Origin: Acidobacteriota bacterium
GTDB lineage: Bacteria; Acidobacteriota; UBA6911; RPQK01; JADFOI01
Assembly: GCA_963663035.1 (NCBI GenBank)
Contig: OY760074.1
Location: forward strand, 1,824,001 to 1,888,000
Length of the DNA: 64,000 bases
Direction: 5' to 3'
Shown here: one piece after another, positions 25,957-35,621 of the stretch
Position numbering within the stretch: the stretch's first letter is position 1
Layout of the letters: each line of letters opens with the position of its first letter
Translations under genes and position numbers: made by a program
Notes under the pieces: generated by a model
The model's input: only the letters and a program-made list of their open reading frames with translations
The model's database searches: none
Told to the model about the DNA's origin: nothing

Positions 25957-27408
25957 TTAATCCTCGGGATCGCTATTGCGAAAGGCATCGGGGATCTTTT
26001 CCAAGCGCTCTTTGGGAATAAAGTCGTGAAGTTTGATGCGCTTCATGTCCTCTTCCGGGAACATGGTGGGGATCAGGAAGGGCTCGGGGGGAGCGGGCCG
26101 GGTGGCGTCGATTCCCGCCTTGGAGCCCCAATGGTGTTCGATGGACGGGTCAACGATGCTGCACATCACGTCCTTGATAATGACCCAATCCTTATCCGGT
26201 TGCGCGCGCGTCCCCACAGCCCAAAACACCATTCGTTCATCGTAGATATCAACGTCATCGTCGACCACGATGACATGCTTGATTCCATAATTGGCGGTCA
26301 GGGCGGCGTGTATGGCCGTTTTGGCCTGGCCCTCGGCTGTTTTCTTGATCTGGATAAAACAAAAGCCTAGACCGTCAACGCCTCCCGCATGGGGCAGCAG
26401 GTAAACCCTAGTCACCTGGGGAACCACCTGCTTGACCATATCGTAGACCTTGAACTCCCGCGCCAGTCCCTGAAAGGCATGATTGCGCCCGATAGCGTAA
26501 TTGGACCACAGCGGATTCTTGCGCTGGGTGATGCAACTGATCTTCATGTAGGGGCACCAACGCTGAGCTCCAATGTGACGGGTGTACTCGCTGTAAGGAC
26601 CCTCCGCGGTGCGCTCCATGGCAAGAATCTCACCCTCGATCACGATCTCCGCATCAGCCGGCACCATGAAATCATCACCCAGGGTCTCAGAGGCGACCAA
26701 TCGCAGCGGTTCACCCAACAGTCCACCGCAGATCTCAAAATGGCTTTCCGGATAACCCATTTTGGTCTGCGAGGCCATGAGCACGTTCGGATGCAGTCCC
26801 TCCACCACAGCGCACTTCATGTTCTTATTGTGCTCCTGTTCGTGCTTATAAAAATTCATGGAGTTGTGGTTATCCGGAGAAAACAGGAAGGCGATCTTGT
26901 CCTTGCCCTGGATTTCACCTCGATGGATCCCCATGTTGTCGACATGGATTTCCGGATGATAGGTGATCATGGGGGCCAGGGAAACGTAGGGATGGGGCAG
27001 CATAAGATACGGTTGATAGGCAGGGTAACGCTGCATATCCACATCATCGCCCTTCAGGATTTCCTCTTTCACCGGTGCCTCGCTTCGATCGACAACGACG
27101 GGCTTTTGCTTGTTTTCGAGGGACAGACGACGCCAGTCGTGGGAGACGGCTTCCCAGGTGGAATTCAAGGCATAGGCCAACTTACTTCGTGAGCCGATCT
27201 CATTCATGATCACTTCGTATTCGGAGGTCTCACCATTGCACAAAATGGGGTTTTTGATGCGCAGCAAGGGAAACTTGCGCTCACGATCCAGGAGATCGAC
27301 CAGAATTCCGATCTCATGCTTGAGACTGATGGGCCTTTCAATCGTGATCACATCTTCGGGATGGTCCCGTTCGTACTCTTTCAAAAAATGACGCAAATCT
27401 TTCGCCAC
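25957..27408 (-). CDS. UbiD-family (prFMN-dependent) decarboxylase
   Basis: DLRHFL N-terminus, NMGIHR, VPADAEIVIEG, EGPYSEYT, KHVIVVDDDVDIYD, KAGIDAT. Confidence 0.92.
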   Translation of the reverse strand: MAKDLRHFLKEYERDHPEDVITIERPISLKHEIGILVDLLDRERKFPLLRIKNPILCNGETSEYEVIMNEIGSRSKLAYALNSTWEAVSHDWRRLSLENKQKPVVVDRSEAPVKEEILKGDDVDMQRYPAYQPYLMLPHPYVSLAPMITYHPEIHVDNMGIHRGEIQGKDKIAFLFSPDNHNSMNFYKHEQEHNKNMKCAVVEGLHPNVLMASQTKMGYPESHFEICGGLLGEPLRLVASETLGDDFMVPADAEIVIEGEILAMERTAEGPYSEYTRHIGAQRWCPYMKISCITQRKNPLWSNYAIGRNHAFQGLAREFKVYDMVKQVVPQVTRVYLLPHAGGVDGLGFCFIQIKKTAEGQAKTAIHAALTANYGIKHVIVVDDDVDIYDERMVFWAVGTRAQPDKDWVIIKDVMCSIVDPSIEHHWGSKAGIDATRPAPPEPFLIPTMFPEEDMKRIKLHDFIPKERLEKIPDAFRNSDPED

Positions 27409-29022: not shown

Positions 29023-31152
29023 ATGAGACCTCCAACAAGATTCCGCTTCTCTGCTTCTCTACTCTGTTTGATCTTCTTTCTCCCAGGGTGCAGTGACTCT
29101 CCAATGGATCGGCCCACCGGGCTGGACCAAACCGAAATTCTTTGGGATTCGTGGGGAGTGCCGCACATCTTTGCCGCGCAGGAAGGAAACCTGTTCTACG
29201 CAATGGGCTGGGCTCAGGCCAAAAGCCACGGCAATCTGATCTTGAGACTTTATGGCCAGGCACGGGGACGGGGAGCCGAACACTGGGGCCAGGCCTATCT
29301 GCCAACAGACCGTTGGGTCCGGATGATGGGTATTCCCGACCGTGCCAGGACCTGGTATGACGCCCAGAGTGGGGAATGGAAGCAAAATCTGGATTCCTTT
29401 GCCCAGGGTATCAATGCTTACGCTCAGGACCATCCTGATCAAATCTCGGAGGAGTTGAAGGTCATCCTGCCGGTAAACGGGCGGGACGTGCTGGCTCACG
29501 CTCAGCGGGTGATTCTTTTTTCCTTCGTCACCAGTCAGAGGCTTCTTCCCTTTGTCGACCAACAATGGAATCCTGGCCAGTCTGCACAACTCCCCAGGAA
29601 CCCTGGTGGATCCAACGGTTGGGCCATTGGACCCTCCAGGTCAGAAAGCGGAAACGCTCTGCTTCTCGCCAATCCCCATTTGCCCTGGTTCGATCTTTAC
29701 CTCTGGTATGAAACACACCTGGTTGGGCCAGGGATCGACGCCTATGGAGCAGGCCTGGTGGGCATCCCGGTCCTGGGGATAGCCTTTAACGACTATCTGG
29801 GCTGGACCCACACCGTCAACGCCCATGACGGAGATGACCTCTACGAGCTCACACTTACGGACGGCGGTTATCGCTGGAACGGTGGGGTCCAGGAGTTTGA
29901 AACGACCCAGGAGATTCTCACGGTCAAGCAGGAGGACGGCACCCTGAAGGAGGAAAAGCTCATCTTCAGGCAGTCCGTTCACGGTCCTGTGATTGCCGAG
30001 AAGAACGGCAAGGCCCTTGCCTTGAGGATCGTGGGGCTCGATCAGTCGGCCATGCTTTCCGAGTGGTGGGATATGATGCAGGCAAGAGATCTCGAGGAAT
30101 TCGAATCTGTTTTGAGGCGCATGCAGATTCCCATGTTTACGGTGATCTATGCCGACCGGGATGGCCACATCATGCATTTCTTCGGTGGTATCACCCCGAT
30201 ACGCCCGGCAGGAGATTGGGACTGGTCGGGGATCGTCCCGGGCGACACCTCGGAAACCCTCTGGACGGGAACCCATAGTTACGAAGAACTCCCTAAAGTG
30301 GTTGATCCCCAGAGCGGCTGGCTCCAAAACGCCAATGATCCCCCTTGGACGACAACCTTTCCGCCCGTCCTGGAGGCCAGCCAGTTCCCTCCTTACATGG
30401 CACCTCGAAGGATGCGCTTGCGAGCGCAGCGTTCGGCCCACATGCTGATGGAAGATGAGAGTATGACCCTCCAAGAGCTGATCCGCTATAAACATTCGAC
30501 CCATGTGGAACTGGCTGATCGTCTCCTCGATGACCTGTTAGCAGCTGCCCAGCAGAGCACCAGTGACCTGGTCCGCCAGGCCGCCCAGGTTCTGAGTTCC
30601 TGGGACCGCAAGACCGATGCCCAAAGCCGGGGTGCGGTCCTGTTTGAAGCTTTCTTTCAGGAACTCAATCGCTCCCAGTCTGACTCTGGTCTTTTTACCC
30701 TCAACTGGAGTGAGGAGTCTGCATTGGAAACCCCCAAGGGACTGGCTGATCGGGAGGCTGCCCTCAAAGCGCTGGAAATCGCGGCAACTCAAGTCCAGGC
30801 AGACCATGGAACACTGGAGGTGGAGTGGGGAAAAGTCAATCGTCTGCGTATAGCTGACCAAGATCTTCCCGCCAACGGAGGACCGGATAGTCTGGGTATC
30901 TTCCGAGCCCTCAGTTTCCAGGGGATTGGCCAGGGCCTGAGAAGGGCTACCTCGGGAGACTCCTTTGTGATGGCCGTGGAGTTTTCCAACCCGGTTCGGG
31001 CTCGGGCCCTACTGAGCTACGGAAATTCCTCACAACCGGAGTCACCCTTTCTTGGAGATCAACTTGAACTTTTTTCACAAAAGGAGTTACGCCCGGTGTG
31101 GCGAACTCGAGAGGAGATCGAGGCCAACCTGGACTCTAGGAAAGAGTTTTAG
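29023..31152 (+). CDS. Penicillin/glutaryl-7-ACA acylase family Ntn-hydrolase lipoprotein
   Basis: LPGC lipobox, WDSWGVPHI, autoproteolytic G/SNGWAI, LLLANPHLPW. Confidence 0.92.
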   Translation: MRPPTRFRFSASLLCLIFFLPGCSDSPMDRPTGLDQTEILWDSWGVPHIFAAQEGNLFYAMGWAQAKSHGNLILRLYGQARGRGAEHWGQAYLPTDRWVRMMGIPDRARTWYDAQSGEWKQNLDSFAQGINAYAQDHPDQISEELKVILPVNGRDVLAHAQRVILFSFVTSQRLLPFVDQQWNPGQSAQLPRNPGGSNGWAIGPSRSESGNALLLANPHLPWFDLYLWYETHLVGPGIDAYGAGLVGIPVLGIAFNDYLGWTHTVNAHDGDDLYELTLTDGGYRWNGGVQEFETTQEILTVKQEDGTLKEEKLIFRQSVHGPVIAEKNGKALALRIVGLDQSAMLSEWWDMMQARDLEEFESVLRRMQIPMFTVIYADRDGHIMHFFGGITPIRPAGDWDWSGIVPGDTSETLWTGTHSYEELPKVVDPQSGWLQNANDPPWTTTFPPVLEASQFPPYMAPRRMRLRAQRSAHMLMEDESMTLQELIRYKHSTHVELADRLLDDLLAAAQQSTSDLVRQAAQVLSSWDRKTDAQSRGAVLFEAFFQELNRSQSDSGLFTLNWSEESALETPKGLADREAALKALEIAATQVQADHGTLEVEWGKVNRLRIADQDLPANGGPDSLGIFRALSFQGIGQGLRRATSGDSFVMAVEFSNPVRARALLSYGNSSQPESPFLGDQLELFSQKELRPVWRTREEIEANLDSRKEF

Positions 31153-32716
31153 CCCGTAAGACGGCTCGTTGAATTTTTCCCGTGGGCGTCAGGGGAAGAC
31201 TCTCAACGATCTCCAGTCGCTCAGGCCATTTGAACTTGGCCGTTCCATCTTGTTCAAGCAGGGCACAAAGTTCCTCCAGGGTGGGGGGCGCCTTTCCCTG
31301 AACTGGCACCACAAAGCAGACGGCGCGTTCACCCAGTCGTTCATCGGGCATGCCCACAATAGCCGTCATATACACTGCGGGATGACGGCGGATCACCTCT
31401 TCCACACTTTCCGGGAGGTACTTGGCCCCGCCCCGATTGATTTCCTCCTTGCGACGTCCCAGGATCTGCACATTGCCCGCGGAATCCATTCTGGCCAGAT
31501 CACCAGTTCGAAACCAACCGTCGCTGGTAAAGCTCTCCTGGGTAGCTTCCGGGTTCTTAAAATAGCTCTTGATGCCAAAGGGGGTTTGAATGACAAGCTC
31601 CCCTTTCTGATCAGGGGAAACTGTCTTGTCCTGGTCGTCGCGAAGGGCAATGACGCAGGCACCTGAGACTCGTCCGGCCGTCATCTCAATCACCTCCGCC
31701 CGATCATCCAGACGCGTGTAGAAACCACCTCCGGTTTCGGTCATGCCCCAAAAAACCATCGGCGTGCAATGCTTCAAGGTCTTGCGCAGCTTGCCCACCA
31801 GATCGGGAGAACAGACGCTGCCGGAGAGGGCAAAGAGCCGAAGGCCACCGAGAGCTTCAGGGTTCAAGTCAGAAGAGGCTAGAAGGTCAACGGCATGCAC
31901 GGGAGCCCCAATCACGACCGTTGCCCCACCTTCAGCCAGCCTGGATGGAAAGGTAGTAGGGCGATACTTTTCCAGAAGCACTTGACGGCAACCGTAGATC
32001 ACACTACTCCAATAGTTCAAAATCGCCCACATGTGGCTGAGGGCTGAACAGCAAAGCATGCCATCGCTTGTTTGAAGTTCCATATCCTTCCCGCAAAACC
32101 AGGAGTTGCTCATCCGCATATTGTGCGTGTGTAGTGTTGCCTTGGGGCTGGCAGTGGTGCCCGATGTAAAAAGCAGCAGGAAGGGATCCTGGGGCTGCGG
32201 ATCTTCCTCTTGAGCCTTGGCAGACTCCTCGGCAAGTTCCTCCCAGGGAATGCTCCCCTGGGGTCTCTCTTCCCCCAGCGAGACGACCTGGCGCAGGGAG
32301 GGAAGCCGTTGCTGTATTTCCAGACCCATCTCCAGGTAGCTAAAGTCCTTGACCGGAGAGCCCATCACCAACATGGCGCTTTCAGCAAAACCCAGGATAT
32401 GCGCCATTTCCGAGCTCCGGTAGGGCATGTGAATGGGATTGAAGATGGCTCTGCGCTTGGATACCGCATGGTGCAGGATGAGAAACTCCGGGATATTGGG
32501 GAGTTGACAGGAGACAACATCGCCCTTTCCTATCCCCCATCTGGCCAATCCTGCGGCCAGGCGATCGCTCTTGAGATCCAAATCGGCGTGACTGAGGGTG
32601 ATGTCTCCCCATTCAATGGCCGGAGCATCGGGGTTTTTCTGGACATTCTCCCGGAGCAGATCGGTAAGACTCTTGTCCAGCCAGCAAGAGTCAGAGGGCT
32701 TCTTATTCGATAACAT
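31136..32716 (-). CDS. AMP-forming acyl/aryl-CoA ligase (cyclohexanecarboxylate-CoA-ligase-like)
   Basis: FTSGTTASPK, WGMTE, GWFRTGDL, GRRKEEINRGG, LPLTPTGKIQR. Confidence 0.9.
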   Translation of the reverse strand: MLSNKKPSDSCWLDKSLTDLLRENVQKNPDAPAIEWGDITLSHADLDLKSDRLAAGLARWGIGKGDVVSCQLPNIPEFLILHHAVSKRRAIFNPIHMPYRSSEMAHILGFAESAMLVMGSPVKDFSYLEMGLEIQQRLPSLRQVVSLGEERPQGSIPWEELAEESAKAQEEDPQPQDPFLLLFTSGTTASPKATLHTHNMRMSNSWFCGKDMELQTSDGMLCCSALSHMWAILNYWSSVIYGCRQVLLEKYRPTTFPSRLAEGGATVVIGAPVHAVDLLASSDLNPEALGGLRLFALSGSVCSPDLVGKLRKTLKHCTPMVFWGMTETGGGFYTRLDDRAEVIEMTAGRVSGACVIALRDDQDKTVSPDQKGELVIQTPFGIKSYFKNPEATQESFTSDGWFRTGDLARMDSAGNVQILGRRKEEINRGGAKYLPESVEEVIRRHPAVYMTAIVGMPDERLGERAVCFVVPVQGKAPPTLEELCALLEQDGTAKFKWPERLEIVESLPLTPTGKIQRAVLRAKTLS

Positions 32717-33830
32717 CGGGAAGGGTCCAGCCTTCCTTAGGACCTGGTGCTTTGTAGTACAGCCATTGCCGTCTGGGGTTGGGTTTCTTTCCGCGGATCA
32801 GATCGTCCATCCAGAGAAAGCCCTTTCGCCACCAACGCCATTTGGGGATTCCCCAGGTGATGATGCGGGCCCACCGCGAATCGGGAAGATTCCAGACGCA
32901 AGTGGTAAAGCAACGGGCGCAATCGTTGAAACGACCCCGATTAGCCGTCCAATACTTCATGCATTTTTTGTTGTCCACCGCCCATTTCTCCACGTTGTCC
33001 TCGATAACCTTCTCTCCATAGGGGATGCACTGAGCCGGGCAATTCACCGCACACTTGTTGCAATCGGTACACATGTCCTGCACACCGATATCCACCGGGC
33101 TGTCCACCTCAAGGGGGAGATCGGTGGTCACGGTTGCCAAACGGACACGTGGTCCATATTTGCGAGTGATAAGGTTTCCGTTTCGTGCCAGCTCTCCCAC
33201 ACCAGCCTCAACAGCAATGGGAATATGGACCACTTCCTCACTAATAAAAAAGTGGGCCTTGGCGGGCCAGCCAATTTCACGGATCCAGGCTGCAAGACTG
33301 ACCACCACCTTGGCACTGTCCAGATAACCCTTGCCAGTTGAAGCGTTGTCGATGAAGCTGGGGGAATTGGCATAGTTTTCGTGTGCCATTTCGACGGCAA
33401 TCGAAATGGCATACTTGTGATTGAGGTCGATAGGCTGCCCGGCAATGCCCTTATGGTGATCGATCCGCAGACCCCGGTGGGTAAAAACCCAAGCTTGATT
33501 CAGCTTGCAGATGCCCACCAGATCAGCATCCAGGAACTTGGCCACCCCTTTGATGATCTCGGACATCCGCCTGGGGTTTTTGACCTCGGTCCGCTTGGGG
33601 TTTAAGGGCCCATCGGCCACACTGCGCCAGGAGCGAATGGGAGCATTTTGGGGTCGCCGATCCGGGTAAAAGATACGCCGAAAAGGATCCTCCGATTCGG
33701 AAATCCATCTTTCCTGGACCCGTTTACCCAGATTGCCCATGGCCGCCTGGGTGTGCAGCTCATCTCGTTGATCGATGCGCTTCAGGGGACCCTTCACCCG
33801 GGTAGTGGGCTCGGATACCGTTCGTGTCAT
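32703..33830 (-). CDS. Reductive dehalogenase-like cobalamin/2x[4Fe-4S] protein, no Tat signal
   Basis: ADLVGI, AISIAVEM, GVGELARNG, GPRVRLATVTTDLPL, CTDCNKCAVNCP and C-x13-CARCFTTC. Confidence 0.8.
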   Translation of the reverse strand: MTRTVSEPTTRVKGPLKRIDQRDELHTQAAMGNLGKRVQERWISESEDPFRRIFYPDRRPQNAPIRSWRSVADGPLNPKRTEVKNPRRMSEIIKGVAKFLDADLVGICKLNQAWVFTHRGLRIDHHKGIAGQPIDLNHKYAISIAVEMAHENYANSPSFIDNASTGKGYLDSAKVVVSLAAWIREIGWPAKAHFFISEEVVHIPIAVEAGVGELARNGNLITRKYGPRVRLATVTTDLPLEVDSPVDIGVQDMCTDCNKCAVNCPAQCIPYGEKVIEDNVEKWAVDNKKCMKYWTANRGRFNDCARCFTTCVWNLPDSRWARIITWGIPKWRWWRKGFLWMDDLIRGKKPNPRRQWLYYKAPGPKEGWTLPDVIE

Positions 33831-33969: not shown

Positions 33970-35621
33970 TCACCCTGCCTGGATCAGCACAAAGGTGAGG
34001 TCATCGTGTTGAGCCATCCCCTCAGTGAATTGGTCCAAGGCTTCCAGGAGTTCTTTTTTTAGTGCCTCGGCTCCGGCAGGTGCGAAGGTTTTGATGATTT
34101 GCAAAAGTCTCTCTTCCTCAAACATCTCTCCCTGAGTGTCAGTCGCCTCCGTGACGCCATCGGAGTAGATAACCAGGACATCCTTAGGCCCGAACTGGAG
34201 TGGGCGAGAGTTGTAAGAGGCATTGTCGAAAGCTCCCAGGATCAAGCCTTCTGAGCGGAGCTCTTCAATCTCACCCGTGGCAGCACGGAAGAGATAGGCG
34301 GGATTGTGGCCCGCCCCCACGAATTCTCCCTTACCCTGGGCATCGACAGAGAAGAGAAAGAGGGTGGCGAAAGCATTGGAGGGTGATCTTTCGCACAGGA
34401 GGGAATTCACACGGGCCAGTGCCTCCCTGGGTGGCACACCCATACGGAATTCCATGTCCAGGGCTCCCTGCAGCATCGAACTCAACAGAGCCGCCGGCAC
34501 CCCTTTACCGGAGACATCTGCCAAGATCCCAATCAGTTCCTGGGAGGTCGGTTGGAGAAAATCATAGAAGTCGCCTCCCACGTGACGGGTGGGTTCACTA
34601 TGAGCCTCGAAGCTGAAATTCCCGAATTTGGGAAGGGAACGAGGTAAAAGACTTCTCTGGGTCTCGAAGGCGATCACCATTCCCTGCTCGTACTTCCTTC
34701 TCTCCTCAAAGCCTTTGATCATCTCCACCTTCTCGAGCACGTTACCGGCCTCAATTGCCAGCTTCTTGAGGATCTTTTCATCCAGACCCGACAGGGCACC
34801 CATGATGCTGGTACTGTCCAGATAAAGGATTCCCAGAACTTCAGGTCTGTCCGACTCAGCCGATATTCCCTTAAGAGGCAGGCAAGGGCTCTGAGCTGCA
34901 TTTCCACAATACTCTCCTGGCGCGCGAGGTCACCCTTGATTCCCTCAGTCATAAAGACAGGGACTCCAGTGCCTGCCACCTGAGCCACCACAGTTTGGCT
35001 GCTACGAAATTCGGCTTCAGACAAAACCTTGTCCTGGGCAGTGAGCCCTACGACAAAACTGAAAGCGTCGCCCTGCCGCCGAAAAACGCAACCTTTTTCT
35101 GCGCCGATGGTTTGGAGAGCAAATCTCAGTATGTGTTCAAAGGTCTCATCGGAGGAAAACTGCTGCCCCCATTGGTATTGGAGATCCAGGATGAAGTGAA
35201 TCTTCTCCAGATCGGAGTATTCTGAGTACTTCTCAGACCCAAGAACCGAGGTCAAATGGGCTAAGGAGGTTCTGAGATCTCCAGCGGTGGTCTCGCTACC
35301 TTTGGCGAATTCGTCAGATGAAAAAAGCACTTCCAAGCGCCCCAGACGGATTTGGTCTCCAGCTTGAAGCTCTTTCTCTTCAATGCGCTCGTCGTTGACA
35401 AAGGTGCCATGGGTGCTTTTCAGGTCAACGATCGAATAACCTTTATCCTTTTTGACAATCTTGGCATGTTGTCGAGACACAGAGCGGTCGATGAGGACGA
35501 CAAAATCAGCGTCAGAACTTCTGCCAATGAGAACTTCATCCGAACTGACTTCGAAGACTTGCTCCTGGGTCTTCTCCGGGCCCAGCAACTTAAGATAGGG
35601 AGTCGGCTGTTTTTTACTCAT
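33970..35621 (-). pseudogene. FHA-GAF-SpoIIE(PP2C) phosphatase split by a frameshift near 34880
   Basis: FHA (IGRS, SVSRQHA, STHGTFVN) and partial GAF in one frame; VLGILYLDS, VGGDFYDF, ADVSGKG, YSDGVTEA, HDDLT in the other. Confidence 0.85.

What the first reader, a model, noticed from the sequence alone, without database searches (positions are those of the whole stretch)
31136..33830. Cytoplasmic reductive-dehalogenase-like enzyme coupled to an acyl-CoA ligase
Seen: a 375-aa protein with RdhA-type motifs (ADLVGI; a candidate catalytic Tyr in GKGY; GELARNG; GPRVRL..VTTDLPL; two Fe-S motifs). It has no Tat leader, no rdhB anchor and no fused reductase domain, and it overlaps the CoA-ligase gene by 14 bp. 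Known: respiratory RdhA has Tat plus RdhB; catabolic NpRdhA/BhbA act on free halophenolics; QueG shares the fold. Inference: a two-gene module for cobalamin-dependent reduction or dehalogenation linked to CoA activation, possibly on a thioester substrate, which I do not recognise as described. This is the best candidate for a novel system here.
Basis: partly seen in the sequence, partly recalled or inferred. Interest (0 to 1): 0.75.

Follow-up and report, generated by a model that had tools for sequence, protein, structure and literature searches.

The report
B12 dehalogenase paired with CoA ligase
This is an untested, soluble vitamin-B12 enzyme of the reductive dehalogenase family whose relatives in several bacterial phyla nearly always sit beside an acid-activating CoA ligase, which suggests it removes a halogen from a CoA-bound aromatic acid, a substrate type my literature searches did not find for this family.

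Summary
In detail: a 375-aa RdhA-fold gene (33830-32703) runs into a 526-aa AMP-forming ligase (32716-31136); no Tat leader, anchor or reductase domain. It is not QueG: NpRdhA is the best structure match (E 2e-63, TM 0.78; QueG 6e-8, 0.36), QueG's Asp134 is missing, and the Tyr/basic proton-donor pair is kept. It belongs to its own well-supported clade, apart from respiratory and BhbA/NpRdhA-type enzymes. The key result is linkage: 22 of 27 clade loci have an AMP-forming ligase directly adjacent, against 0 of 52 other RdhA loci, and the ligases come from at least three distant families (phenylacetate-, benzoate- and cyclohexanecarboxylate/aryl-AMP-like), upstream or downstream. The 14-bp overlap is private to this genome. 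NpRdhA's phenolate-binding triad is not kept. Best reading (0.45): the ligase makes a halo-(hetero)aryl-CoA, and a homodimeric B12/2x[4Fe-4S] enzyme dehalogenates it. Reaction order and substrate are inferred, not shown; the ligase could act after dehalogenation. The stripped-down cytosolic architecture is already in print (PMC12219181); the ligase pairing was not found. New variant of a known kind; interest 0.65.

The parts
32703..33830 (-). Cytoplasmic reductive-dehalogenase-family protein, 375 aa, single cobalamin domain plus 2x[4Fe-4S] domain; no Tat, no TM helix, no vestigial duplicate, no reductase
   Evidence: TIGR02486 156 bits; NpRdhA 267-615, E 2e-63; pLDDT 85; TM 0.78
33324..33326 (-). 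Tyr169, aligns with NpRdhA Tyr426 (proton donor); invariant in 33 of 33 clade rows
33141..33143 (-). Arg230, aligns with NpRdhA Lys488; invariant in 33 of 33 clade rows
32949..32951 (-). Trp294, in place of NpRdhA Arg552 (phenolate binder); Trp in 33 of 33 clade rows
32898..33071 (-). Two Fe-S motifs: C254-C257-C260-C264 and C290-C304-C307-C311
31136..32716 (-). AMP-forming (ANL) acid:CoA ligase, 526 aa, closest to FadK/cyclohexanecarboxylate-CoA ligase/aryl-AMP ligases but below every curated cut-off shown; P-loop TSGTTASPK 184, SHMWA 227, WGMTE 323, FRTGD 402, PLTPTGK 508
32703..32716 (-). 14-bp overlap of RDH stop and ligase start; private to this genome (L006 has 18 more bases here, with its own ATG)

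Best explanation
A two-gene catabolic module. An unusual halogenated aromatic or heteroaromatic carboxylic acid enters the cell (LIV-type ABC transporters in many relatives). The ligase turns it into its CoA thioester at the cost of ATP to AMP + PPi (ligase family shown; substrate inferred). The soluble RdhA-family enzyme, probably a homodimer (predicted), reduced through its two [4Fe-4S] clusters by a host ferredoxin or flavodoxin encoded elsewhere (inferred), uses cob(I)alamin to take off the halide while Tyr169, helped by Arg230, protonates the carbon (residues shown; chemistry inferred from NpRdhA). The product is a plain aryl-CoA that joins the host's normal CoA-dependent aromatic breakdown. 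The thioester takes the activating and positioning role that the phenolate has in NpRdhA (inferred).
For: Linkage: AMP-forming ligase adjacent on the same strand in 22 of 27 clade loci, within 6 kb in 24 of 27; adjacent in 0 of 52 other RdhA loci and anywhere in 2 of 52; with at least 1.5 kb flank on both sides 16 of 19 against 0 of 37. Partners are of at least three families that share 20-30% identity or give no full-length BLAST match: PaaK-like upstream (9 loci, one branch), benzoate-CoA-ligase-like downstream (6 loci, one branch), window type downstream (6 loci plus the window), plus two further PaaK-like ones. All three resemble aryl- or cyclic-acid ligases, and the directly adjacent ones tested (9 of 22) fall below the substrate-specific cut-offs, as expected for an odd substrate that housekeeping ligases do not take. 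Other neighbours fit aromatic-acid catabolism: LivH-type permease 14 of 27 vs 1 of 52, UbiD 7 of 27 vs 0 of 52. Y426/K488 positions kept (Y169/R230), S422/R552 not (T165, mostly V; W294). Known anaerobic halobenzoate routes activate to the CoA ester first, with a specific ligase (PMC4992971, passages). No carrier-protein-like ORF in the 27 clade loci. Homodimer: score 0.94, best of 3 controls 0.02; the mark was reached by 20 of 30 proteins solved as pairs of one chain and 1 of 23 solved as single chains; runs agree in at least 98% of contacts, pLDDT at least 90; may be recalled from the solved PceA dimer.
Against: Gene order cannot tell which enzyme acts first. Known catabolic RDase clusters carry the genes that act on the product (pobA and protocatechuate dioxygenase, dioxygenase), which is the pattern of the first rival. 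3 of 27 clade loci have no AMP-forming ligase, among them the close relatives L001 (83%) and L030 (86%, partial). No CoA site was located: of 8 clade-specific basic residues (R41, R51, R52, R59, R66, R122, K127, R306), two lie in the predicted dimer interface, and acidic residues are conserved almost as often. Trp at the R552 position is the common state in RdhAs (58 of 67 outgroup rows), so its presence says only 'not NpRdhA-like'. The loci are related, so the Fisher p of 4e-15 overstates the case; the ligase profiles were built from clade members. ADP-forming CoA ligases also lie near 9 of 52 outgroup RdhAs, so CoA-ligase neighbours are not exclusive to this clade. No electron donor is encoded in the module (ferredoxin-type motif in a short separate ORF in 2-3 of 27 loci). 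All clade members found are from uncultured genomes.
Confidence: 0.45

Rival explanations
1. Same pathway, reverse order: the enzyme dehalogenates a free halogenated acid (not an ortho-halophenol), and the ligase activates the product for breakdown.
For: All characterised catabolic RDases that I read about act on free substrates (PMC10463259, PMC7565698, passages); their clusters hold product-side genes. Ligase replacement among families fits a product that many ligases can take. No CoA site was shown.
Against: A common product acid would be served by housekeeping ligases, yet a divergent ligase is kept directly adjacent in 22 of 27 loci and scores below known-substrate cut-offs. In the Acidobacteriota the unit is just these two genes.
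Confidence: 0.27
2. The enzyme works on an aryl-CoA but removes a non-halogen group (hydroxyl, amino, sulfonate or thioether), filling one of the orphan reductive-elimination steps of anaerobic aromatic breakdown (salicylyl-, gentisyl-, 3-hydroxybenzoyl- or aminobenzoyl-CoA to benzoyl-CoA; these reactions are recalled, not from a call).
For: The fold can break C-O bonds (QueG). UbiD (de)carboxylases, CoA transferases, a glutamine-synthetase-like gene and aminotransferases occur in related loci. The window ligase's best structures are 2,3-dihydroxybenzoate- and salicylate-AMP ligases. Many clade-specific invariant residues line the N-terminus and the 118-127 insertion.
Against: The Tyr/basic pair of dehalogenases is invariant. 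Aryl C-O and C-N bonds are much harder to reduce (established chemistry). The DhbE hydroxyl-binding stretch AHNYPLSS is SHMWAILN here (role of these residues recalled). A paper search for this link gave 0 hits.
Confidence: 0.12
3. The substrate is a halogenated aliphatic or alicyclic acyl-CoA (for example a halo-alkanoate or halo-alkenoate) fed to beta-oxidation.
For: Best profiles for the window ligase are medium-chain fatty-acid and cyclohexanecarboxylate ligases; the best structure for the PaaK-like partner is 2-hydroxyisobutyryl-CoA synthetase; cytosolic rdhA genes were reported next to beta-oxidation genes (PMC12219181); ADP-forming ligases sit directly upstream of RdhA in L027, L033, L035.
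Against: One partner family is closest to benzoate- and anthranilate-CoA ligases; UbiD neighbours point to (hetero)aromatic acids; acyl-CoA dehydrogenases or enoyl-CoA hydratases were not among the neighbours annotated.
Confidence: 0.1
4. It is a QueG-like tRNA-modifying enzyme, or the ligase is a chance neighbour.
For: Shared fold; AU test did not reject QueG as sister of the clade (p 0.61); linkage is absent in L001, L007, L030.
Against: TIGR00276 56 bits against a cut-off of 200; TM 0.36 to QueG against 0.78 to NpRdhA; QueG's DYH and VDT motifs (Asp134) are GYL and FIS here; QueG lies on a stem of about 4 changes per column; repeated recruitment of unrelated ligases is hard to get by chance.
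Confidence: 0.04

Closest known systems
NpRdhA (Nitratireductor pacificus; PDB 4RAS, 6ZY1) and BhbA (Comamonas 7D-2): catabolic reductive dehalogenases
   Same: No Tat leader; whole-length match to the catalytic half (residues 3-358 with 267-615, E 2e-63, TM 0.78); Tyr426 and a basic residue at 488 kept.
   Different: About 30% identity and a separate branch; no vestigial duplicate domain (predicted homodimer instead), no reductase domain, Ser422/Arg552 phenolate site not kept; neighbours are CoA ligases rather than hydroxylase and ring-cleavage dioxygenases.
'Simplified cytosolic' RdhA-like proteins (PMC12219181)
   Same: About 395 aa, no Tat, no TM helix, no vestigial domain; Desulfobacterota members; IclR/MarR and beta-oxidation neighbours. 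Probably overlaps this clade.
   Different: Uncharacterised; the main text has 0 occurrences of 'ligase' or 'CoA'; its supplement could not be read, so overlap and any ligase note there stay unchecked.
Respiratory RdhA (PceA of Sulfurospirillum, Dehalobacter; PDB 4UQU, 8Q4H)
   Same: Core fold, Tyr/Arg pair, Trp at the 294 position, dimer (predicted here).
   Different: No Tat leader, no RdhB, 375 aa; separate branch.
CoA-dependent halobenzoate routes: 3-chlorobenzoate-CoA ligase plus class I benzoyl-CoA reductase; 4-chlorobenzoate-CoA ligase plus hydrolytic 4-chlorobenzoyl-CoA dehalogenase
   Same: Logic of a dedicated ligase followed by dehalogenation of the thioester (PMC4992971, PMC6922536, PMC6100074; passages).
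   Different: Those dehalogenating enzymes are ATP-driven Fe-S reductases or hydrolases, not corrinoid enzymes.
QueG epoxyqueuosine reductase
   Same: Cobalamin and 2x[4Fe-4S] fold.
   Different: Profile score, TM-score and catalytic residues do not match.
Cyclohexanecarboxylate-CoA ligase (TIGR03208), FadK (NF004758), DhbE (TIGR02275)
   Same: Nearest profiles for the window ligase (274-310 bits); about 33% identity to plasmid-borne members.
   Different: Far below their cut-offs (724-792); pocket stretch SHMWA is its own.

Membership tests
Reductive dehalogenase superfamily (RdhA) | Cobalamin-binding core fold | tested here: met
   Foldseek TM 0.78 to NpRdhA, E 1e-25; phmmer E 2e-63
Reductive dehalogenase superfamily (RdhA) | Two C-terminal Fe-S motifs, 8 Cys | tested here: met
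   C254/257/260/264 and C290/304/307/311, invariant in 34 of 34 rows
Reductive dehalogenase superfamily (RdhA) | Tyr plus Lys/Arg proton-donor pair | tested here: met
   Y169 = Y426, R230 = K488
Reductive dehalogenase superfamily (RdhA) | TIGR02486 curated cut-off | tested here: not met
   156.1 bits against 160.35; just below
Reductive dehalogenase superfamily (RdhA) | Cobalamin binding and halide release | not testable with these tools
   needs assay
Respiratory RdhA | Tat signal peptide | tested here: not met
   the same scan found Tat motifs in Dehalobacter-type RdhAs
Respiratory RdhA | Adjacent rdhB anchor | tested here: not met
Transmembrane RdhA | N-terminal transmembrane helices | tested here: not met
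   highest hydropathy 1.19 against 2.1-3.1
Catabolic RdhA (NpRdhA/BhbA type) | Vestigial duplicated cobalamin domain | tested here: not met
   single domain; some clade members of 564-617 aa do carry an N-terminal duplicate
Catabolic RdhA (NpRdhA/BhbA type) | Phenolate triad S422/K488/R552 | tested here: not met
   T165 (V in 24 of 33), R230, W294
Catabolic RdhA (NpRdhA/BhbA type) | Branches with BhbA-type enzymes | tested here: not met
   separate starred branches in both quick trees; the AU test for this grouping did not finish
'Simplified cytosolic' RdhA (PMC12219181) | About 395 aa, no Tat, TM, vestigial or reductase domain | tested here: met
'Simplified cytosolic' RdhA (PMC12219181) | Same phylogenetic group as the paper's sequences | not testable with these tools
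   supplement could not be read
QueG | TIGR00276 cut-off | tested here: not met
   56 against 200 bits
QueG | DYH motif and catalytic Asp134 | tested here: not met
   GYL and FIS at the aligned places; Asp134 named in PDB title; role of the DYH His recalled
QueG | Branches with QueG | tested here: inconclusive
   far apart in both trees, but AU test did not reject QueG as sister, p 0.61
AMP-forming acid:CoA ligase (ANL) | AMP-binding domains and core motifs | tested here: met
   PF00501 217 bits, PF13193 56 bits; motifs
AMP-forming acid:CoA ligase (ANL) | CoA rather than a carrier protein as acceptor | tested here: inconclusive
   no carrier-like ORF by motif in 27 clade loci; best structure is DhbE, which loads a carrier; sister partners are CoA-ligase families
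Cyclohexanecarboxylate-CoA ligase / FadK / DhbE equivalogs | Curated cut-offs | tested here: not met
   296/792, 310/736, 274/724 bits

The most novel reading that the evidence does not exclude
The clade is a family of cobalamin enzymes that work on aryl-CoA thioesters and remove a group other than a halogen (hydroxyl, amino or sulfonate), i.e. the missing catalysts of orphan reductive-elimination steps in anaerobic aromatic breakdown. That would turn the 'reductive dehalogenase' fold into a general aryl-CoA reductive lyase. (The milder novel case, a B12 dehalogenase specific for CoA thioesters, is the best explanation at about 0.45 and would deserve about 0.8.)
Probability: 0.12. Interest if true: 0.9.

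Novelty: new variant of a known kind. Interest (0 to 1): 0.65.

Why it matters
The characterised corrinoid dehalogenases that I read about act on free molecules, and the known CoA-dependent dehalogenations use non-corrinoid enzymes. A B12 enzyme working on CoA esters would join the two and give anaerobes and microaerobes a way to use halogenated aromatic acids as carbon sources rather than as electron acceptors. The clade spans Acidobacteriota, Rokuibacteriota, Tectomicrobia, Nitrospinota, Thermodesulfobacteriota and Pseudomonadota. It is unusually easy to test: the enzyme is small and soluble, an E. coli system for expressing RDases is in print (PMC13101508, PMC10463259), and three unrelated ligase families should converge on one acid, so a ligase screen can name the substrate before the B12 enzyme is assayed. 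It also gives a first concrete pathway hypothesis for the uncharacterised 'simplified cytosolic' RdhAs.

Tried and rejected
QueG: rejected on profile, fold and residues; the AU test was uninformative (p 0.61). Translational coupling through a conserved overlap: rejected, the overlap is private. RDH-ligase fusion: none among 2 hits in the 658-2000 aa search (weak evidence) or the top profile hits checked (P0244 is a tandem RDH). A physical RDH-ligase complex was not tested; replacement by unrelated ligases argues against it. A 'basic CoA patch': only suggestive, since R52 and R59 are explained by the dimer interface and the complex job does not score or locate the CoA that rode along. Substrate naming from neighbours failed: the binding protein's best structures are amino-acid/amide binders at E 1e-25; one UbiD is closest to PDB 6H6V and AnInD, far from phthaloyl-CoA decarboxylase, and UbiDs of different loci are not one family. 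No cobalamin riboswitch in the window or 8 of the 27 clade loci; no sigma-70 promoter match. No cultured member: best plasmid hit about 31%. The window's own UbiD (25957-27408) is cut off from the module by an IS and the acylase gene and is not counted as a part. T7RdhA (PMC10008544, passages) is described as PceA-branch with Y213/W343 numbering that does not match; not compared by sequence. The careful tree and the AU test against catabolic RDases did not finish.
Full report
OBSERVATION. All motifs are present. Upstream lies an FHA/SpoIIE gene and housekeeping genes; downstream a convergent penicillin acylase whose stop overlaps the ligase's. There is no Tat leader, transmembrane helix, rdhB-like ORF or second Fe-S protein in the module. 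The closest relative, 94% identical with the same upstream genes, is in an Acidobacteriota MAG (L006), so the window is probably from that phylum (inference). The overlap is private: L006 has 18 more bases after the RDH stop with its own ATG; other relatives have short gaps.

WHAT THE RDH IS. It scores 156 bits on TIGR02486 (cut-off 160) and 56 on QueG TIGR00276 (cut-off 200). It aligns along its length with the catalytic half of NpRdhA (E 2e-63), less with PceA-type enzymes (1e-36, 2e-26) and barely with QueG (6e-8). An AlphaFold model from a 34-row alignment (pLDDT 85) gives TM 0.78 to NpRdhA, about 0.62 to PceA, 0.36 to QueG. Counting along the NpRdhA alignment, Y169 = Y426, R230 = K488, T165 = S422, W294 = R552. 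Y426/K488 are the proton-donor pair, and S422/K488/R552 hold the substrate's phenol oxygen (PMC7565698, passages). So the catalytic pair is kept and the phenolate site is not. QueG's DYH and VDT (Asp134) motifs are absent. In a tree of 112 rows the protein falls in a clade of 33 rows (SH-aLRT 100; 98 in a 42-row tree), apart from BhbA-type, PceA-type, transmembrane RdhAs and QueG (both quick trees, no bootstrap). Against this: an AU test did not reject a tree with QueG attached beside the clade (p 0.61); QueG is a very long branch and the root is unsure. A profile search of 1.84 billion 50%-clusters gives two full-length hits above 600 bits and then a drop to 421 and below, so the clade is compact. 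A complex prediction supports a homodimer: 0.94, best of 3 controls 0.02; the mark was reached by 20 of 30 proteins solved as pairs of one chain and 1 of 23 solved as single chains; runs agree in at least 98% of contacts, pLDDT at least 90; the pass may come from memory of the PceA dimer. This fits the report that NpRdhA's vestigial domain mimics the dimer partner (PMC10463259, passages), and some clade members of 564-617 aa carry such a duplicate.

THE LINKAGE. One scan of GTDB genomes with the clade alignment confirmed 97 relatives and kept the best 80. 27 loci (L001-L025, L028, L030) are 53-94% identical; L030 is a 121-aa fragment placed by identity, not by tree. I dropped L080 as a duplicate of L076, leaving 52 other RdhA loci. 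Profiles built from the clade's ligases were run over all six-frame ORFs. An AMP-forming ligase is directly adjacent on the same strand (gap under 300 bp) in 22 of 27 clade loci and within 6 kb in 24 of 27; none is seen in L001, L007, L030. It is adjacent in 0 of 52 other loci and present anywhere in 2 of 52. With at least 1.5 kb of flank on both sides the counts are 16 of 19 and 0 of 37. The loci are kin, so the Fisher p (4e-15) overstates this. The stronger point is replacement: PaaK-like ligases lie upstream in 9 loci, mostly Thermodesulfobacteriota (one branch, 99), benzoate-CoA-ligase-like ones downstream in 6 Pseudomonadota loci (one branch, 100), the window type downstream in Acidobacteriota and a Nitrospinota locus (7 rows with the window, 4 changes), and two Tectomicrobia loci have other PaaK-like genes at 26-39% to the rest. 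The families share 20-30% identity or give no full-length match. Five more RDH/ligase pairs in the protein database share an exact contig length; the look-up that could confirm this could not be made. LivH-type permeases occur in 14 of 27 against 1 of 52 loci, UbiD in 7 of 27 against 0 of 52, CoA transferase subunits in 3 of 27 against 0 of 52. A caveat in the other direction: ADP-forming CoA ligases lie near 9 of 52 outgroup RdhAs, directly upstream on the same strand in three (L027, L033, L035) and convergent in six closely related transmembrane RdhA loci. CoA activation next to soluble RdhAs may therefore be a wider theme.

THE LIGASE. It has all core motifs; its nearest profiles are FadK, cyclohexanecarboxylate-CoA ligase and DhbE, all far below cut-off, and its nearest structures are DhbE and salicylate-AMP ligase. 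The pocket stretch is SHMWA where DhbE has AHNYP, so a dihydroxybenzoate substrate is unlikely (residue roles recalled). No carrier-protein motif was found in the 27 clade loci. The 9 of 22 directly adjacent partners that I scanned all fall below the substrate-specific cut-offs (for example benzoate family 327-345 against 375; PaaK 118-271 against 646); the one that passes the benzoate family cut-off is two genes away in L025.

HOW IT MOST LIKELY WORKS. Shown: fold, Fe-S and catalytic residues, cytoplasmic architecture, own clade, repeated pairing with acid-activating ligases. Predicted: homodimer. Inferred: an aromatic or heteroaromatic halo-acid is imported, activated to its CoA ester, and dehalogenated by cob(I)alamin with Tyr169 as proton donor, electrons coming from a host carrier; the plain aryl-CoA enters central breakdown (0.45). 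The reasons for ligase first are that a common product would not need its own divergent ligase kept adjacent, that the phenolate site is gone, and that anaerobic halobenzoate routes use a specific ligase before dehalogenation (PMC4992971, passages; PMC6922536, passages). The main rival, dehalogenation of the free acid followed by activation (0.27), cannot be excluded: BhbA-type clusters also hold product-side genes. Non-halogen elimination (0.12), an aliphatic acyl-CoA (0.10) and QueG or chance (0.04) follow. I looked for a CoA-binding signature: eight basic residues are nearly invariant in the clade and rare outside, but two are in the predicted dimer interface and acidic residues are conserved almost as often, so this is a lead only.

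WHAT IS KNOWN. PMC12219181 (passages) already names a 'simplified cytosolic' RdhA group of about 395 aa without the vestigial domain, mainly in Desulfobacterota and Chloroflexota, near IclR/MarR and beta-oxidation genes, untested. Its main text has no 'ligase' or 'CoA'; its supplement, which lists neighbouring genes and may bear on novelty, could not be read. Transmembrane RdhAs are described in PMC6797604 (search listing and start of abstract only). CoA-dependent dehalogenation is known with class I benzoyl-CoA reductase and the hydrolytic 4-chlorobenzoyl-CoA dehalogenase. Nine searches of the open library returned no paper, among the listings I saw, that describes a corrinoid dehalogenase paired with a CoA ligase or acting on a thioester; subscription journals are mostly missing from that library, and for only the top 25 of 157 and 20 of 148 were listed. 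PMC10008544 and PMC13101508 were seen as passages and do not concern this clade as far as I saw.

VERDICT. A real, conserved, uncharacterised module: a distinct clade of minimal cytoplasmic RdhA-family enzymes tied to acid:CoA ligases by repeated, independent recruitment. It works like a catabolic reductive dehalogenase but is not a member of the NpRdhA/BhbA, respiratory, transmembrane or QueG families by the features tested. New variant of a known kind; interest 0.65, rising to about 0.8 if the thioester substrate is confirmed.

Noticed in passing
window:33970-35621 (-): FHA-GAF-SpoIIE phosphatase gene is split into two ORFs by a 4-bp deletion near 34878 relative to the intact 551-aa gene in L006; pseudogene or assembly error.
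   Followed up: yes
window:33843-33968: The spacer upstream of the RDH gene is a long imperfect hairpin (31-nt arms, 81% complementary) built from AGGAGxC-type heptamer repeats; no Rfam match.
   Followed up: partly
window:27723-28978: IS3-family element (two ORFs, 33-nt terminal inverted repeats) between the UbiD gene and the penicillin acylase.
   Followed up: partly
window:9473-31152: Catabolic-looking stretch: several secreted amidohydrolase-3 genes, TonB receptor, tannase/feruloyl esterase, Abhydrolase_10, UbiD decarboxylase, penicillin acylase. Homologues of the amidohydrolase and Abhydrolase_10 also lie beside the module in L002.
   Followed up: no
L013:7208-8581, L014:7173-8579, L019:3432-4850: A second RdhA with an N-terminal hydrophobic region sits directly upstream of the PaaK-like ligase, giving RdhA-ligase-RdhA clusters with CoA transferase, ADP-forming ligase and, in two, a glutamine-synthetase-like gene.
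   Followed up: partly
L033:3562-6720, L035:7622-10876, L027:7984-11140: Soluble RdhAs outside the clade (Anaerolineaceae, Actinomycetota) lie directly behind ADP-forming acyl-CoA synthetases; L027 also has a ferredoxin, P450, AMP ligase and PaaX-like regulator.
   Followed up: partly
P0010, P0011, P0013, P0015, P0017, P0020: Clade members of 564-617 aa with an N-terminal degenerate copy of the cobalamin domain, apparently an independent repeat of the NpRdhA architecture.
   Followed up: partly
P0241, P0244: P0241 is a soluble RdhA-like domain joined to a solute-binding protein, with D in place of the catalytic Tyr (may be a gene-call artefact); P0244 holds two RdhA domains in tandem.
   Followed up: no
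L026:5705-11080: Sister-group RdhA near an MtmB-like methyltransferase, a corrinoid protein and an alcohol dehydrogenase.
   Followed up: no
L012, L017, L018, L021, L023: CrtO/phytoene-desaturase-like FAD oxidoreductases, often in pairs, recur in 5 of 27 clade loci and 0 of 52 others; role unexplained.
   Followed up: no
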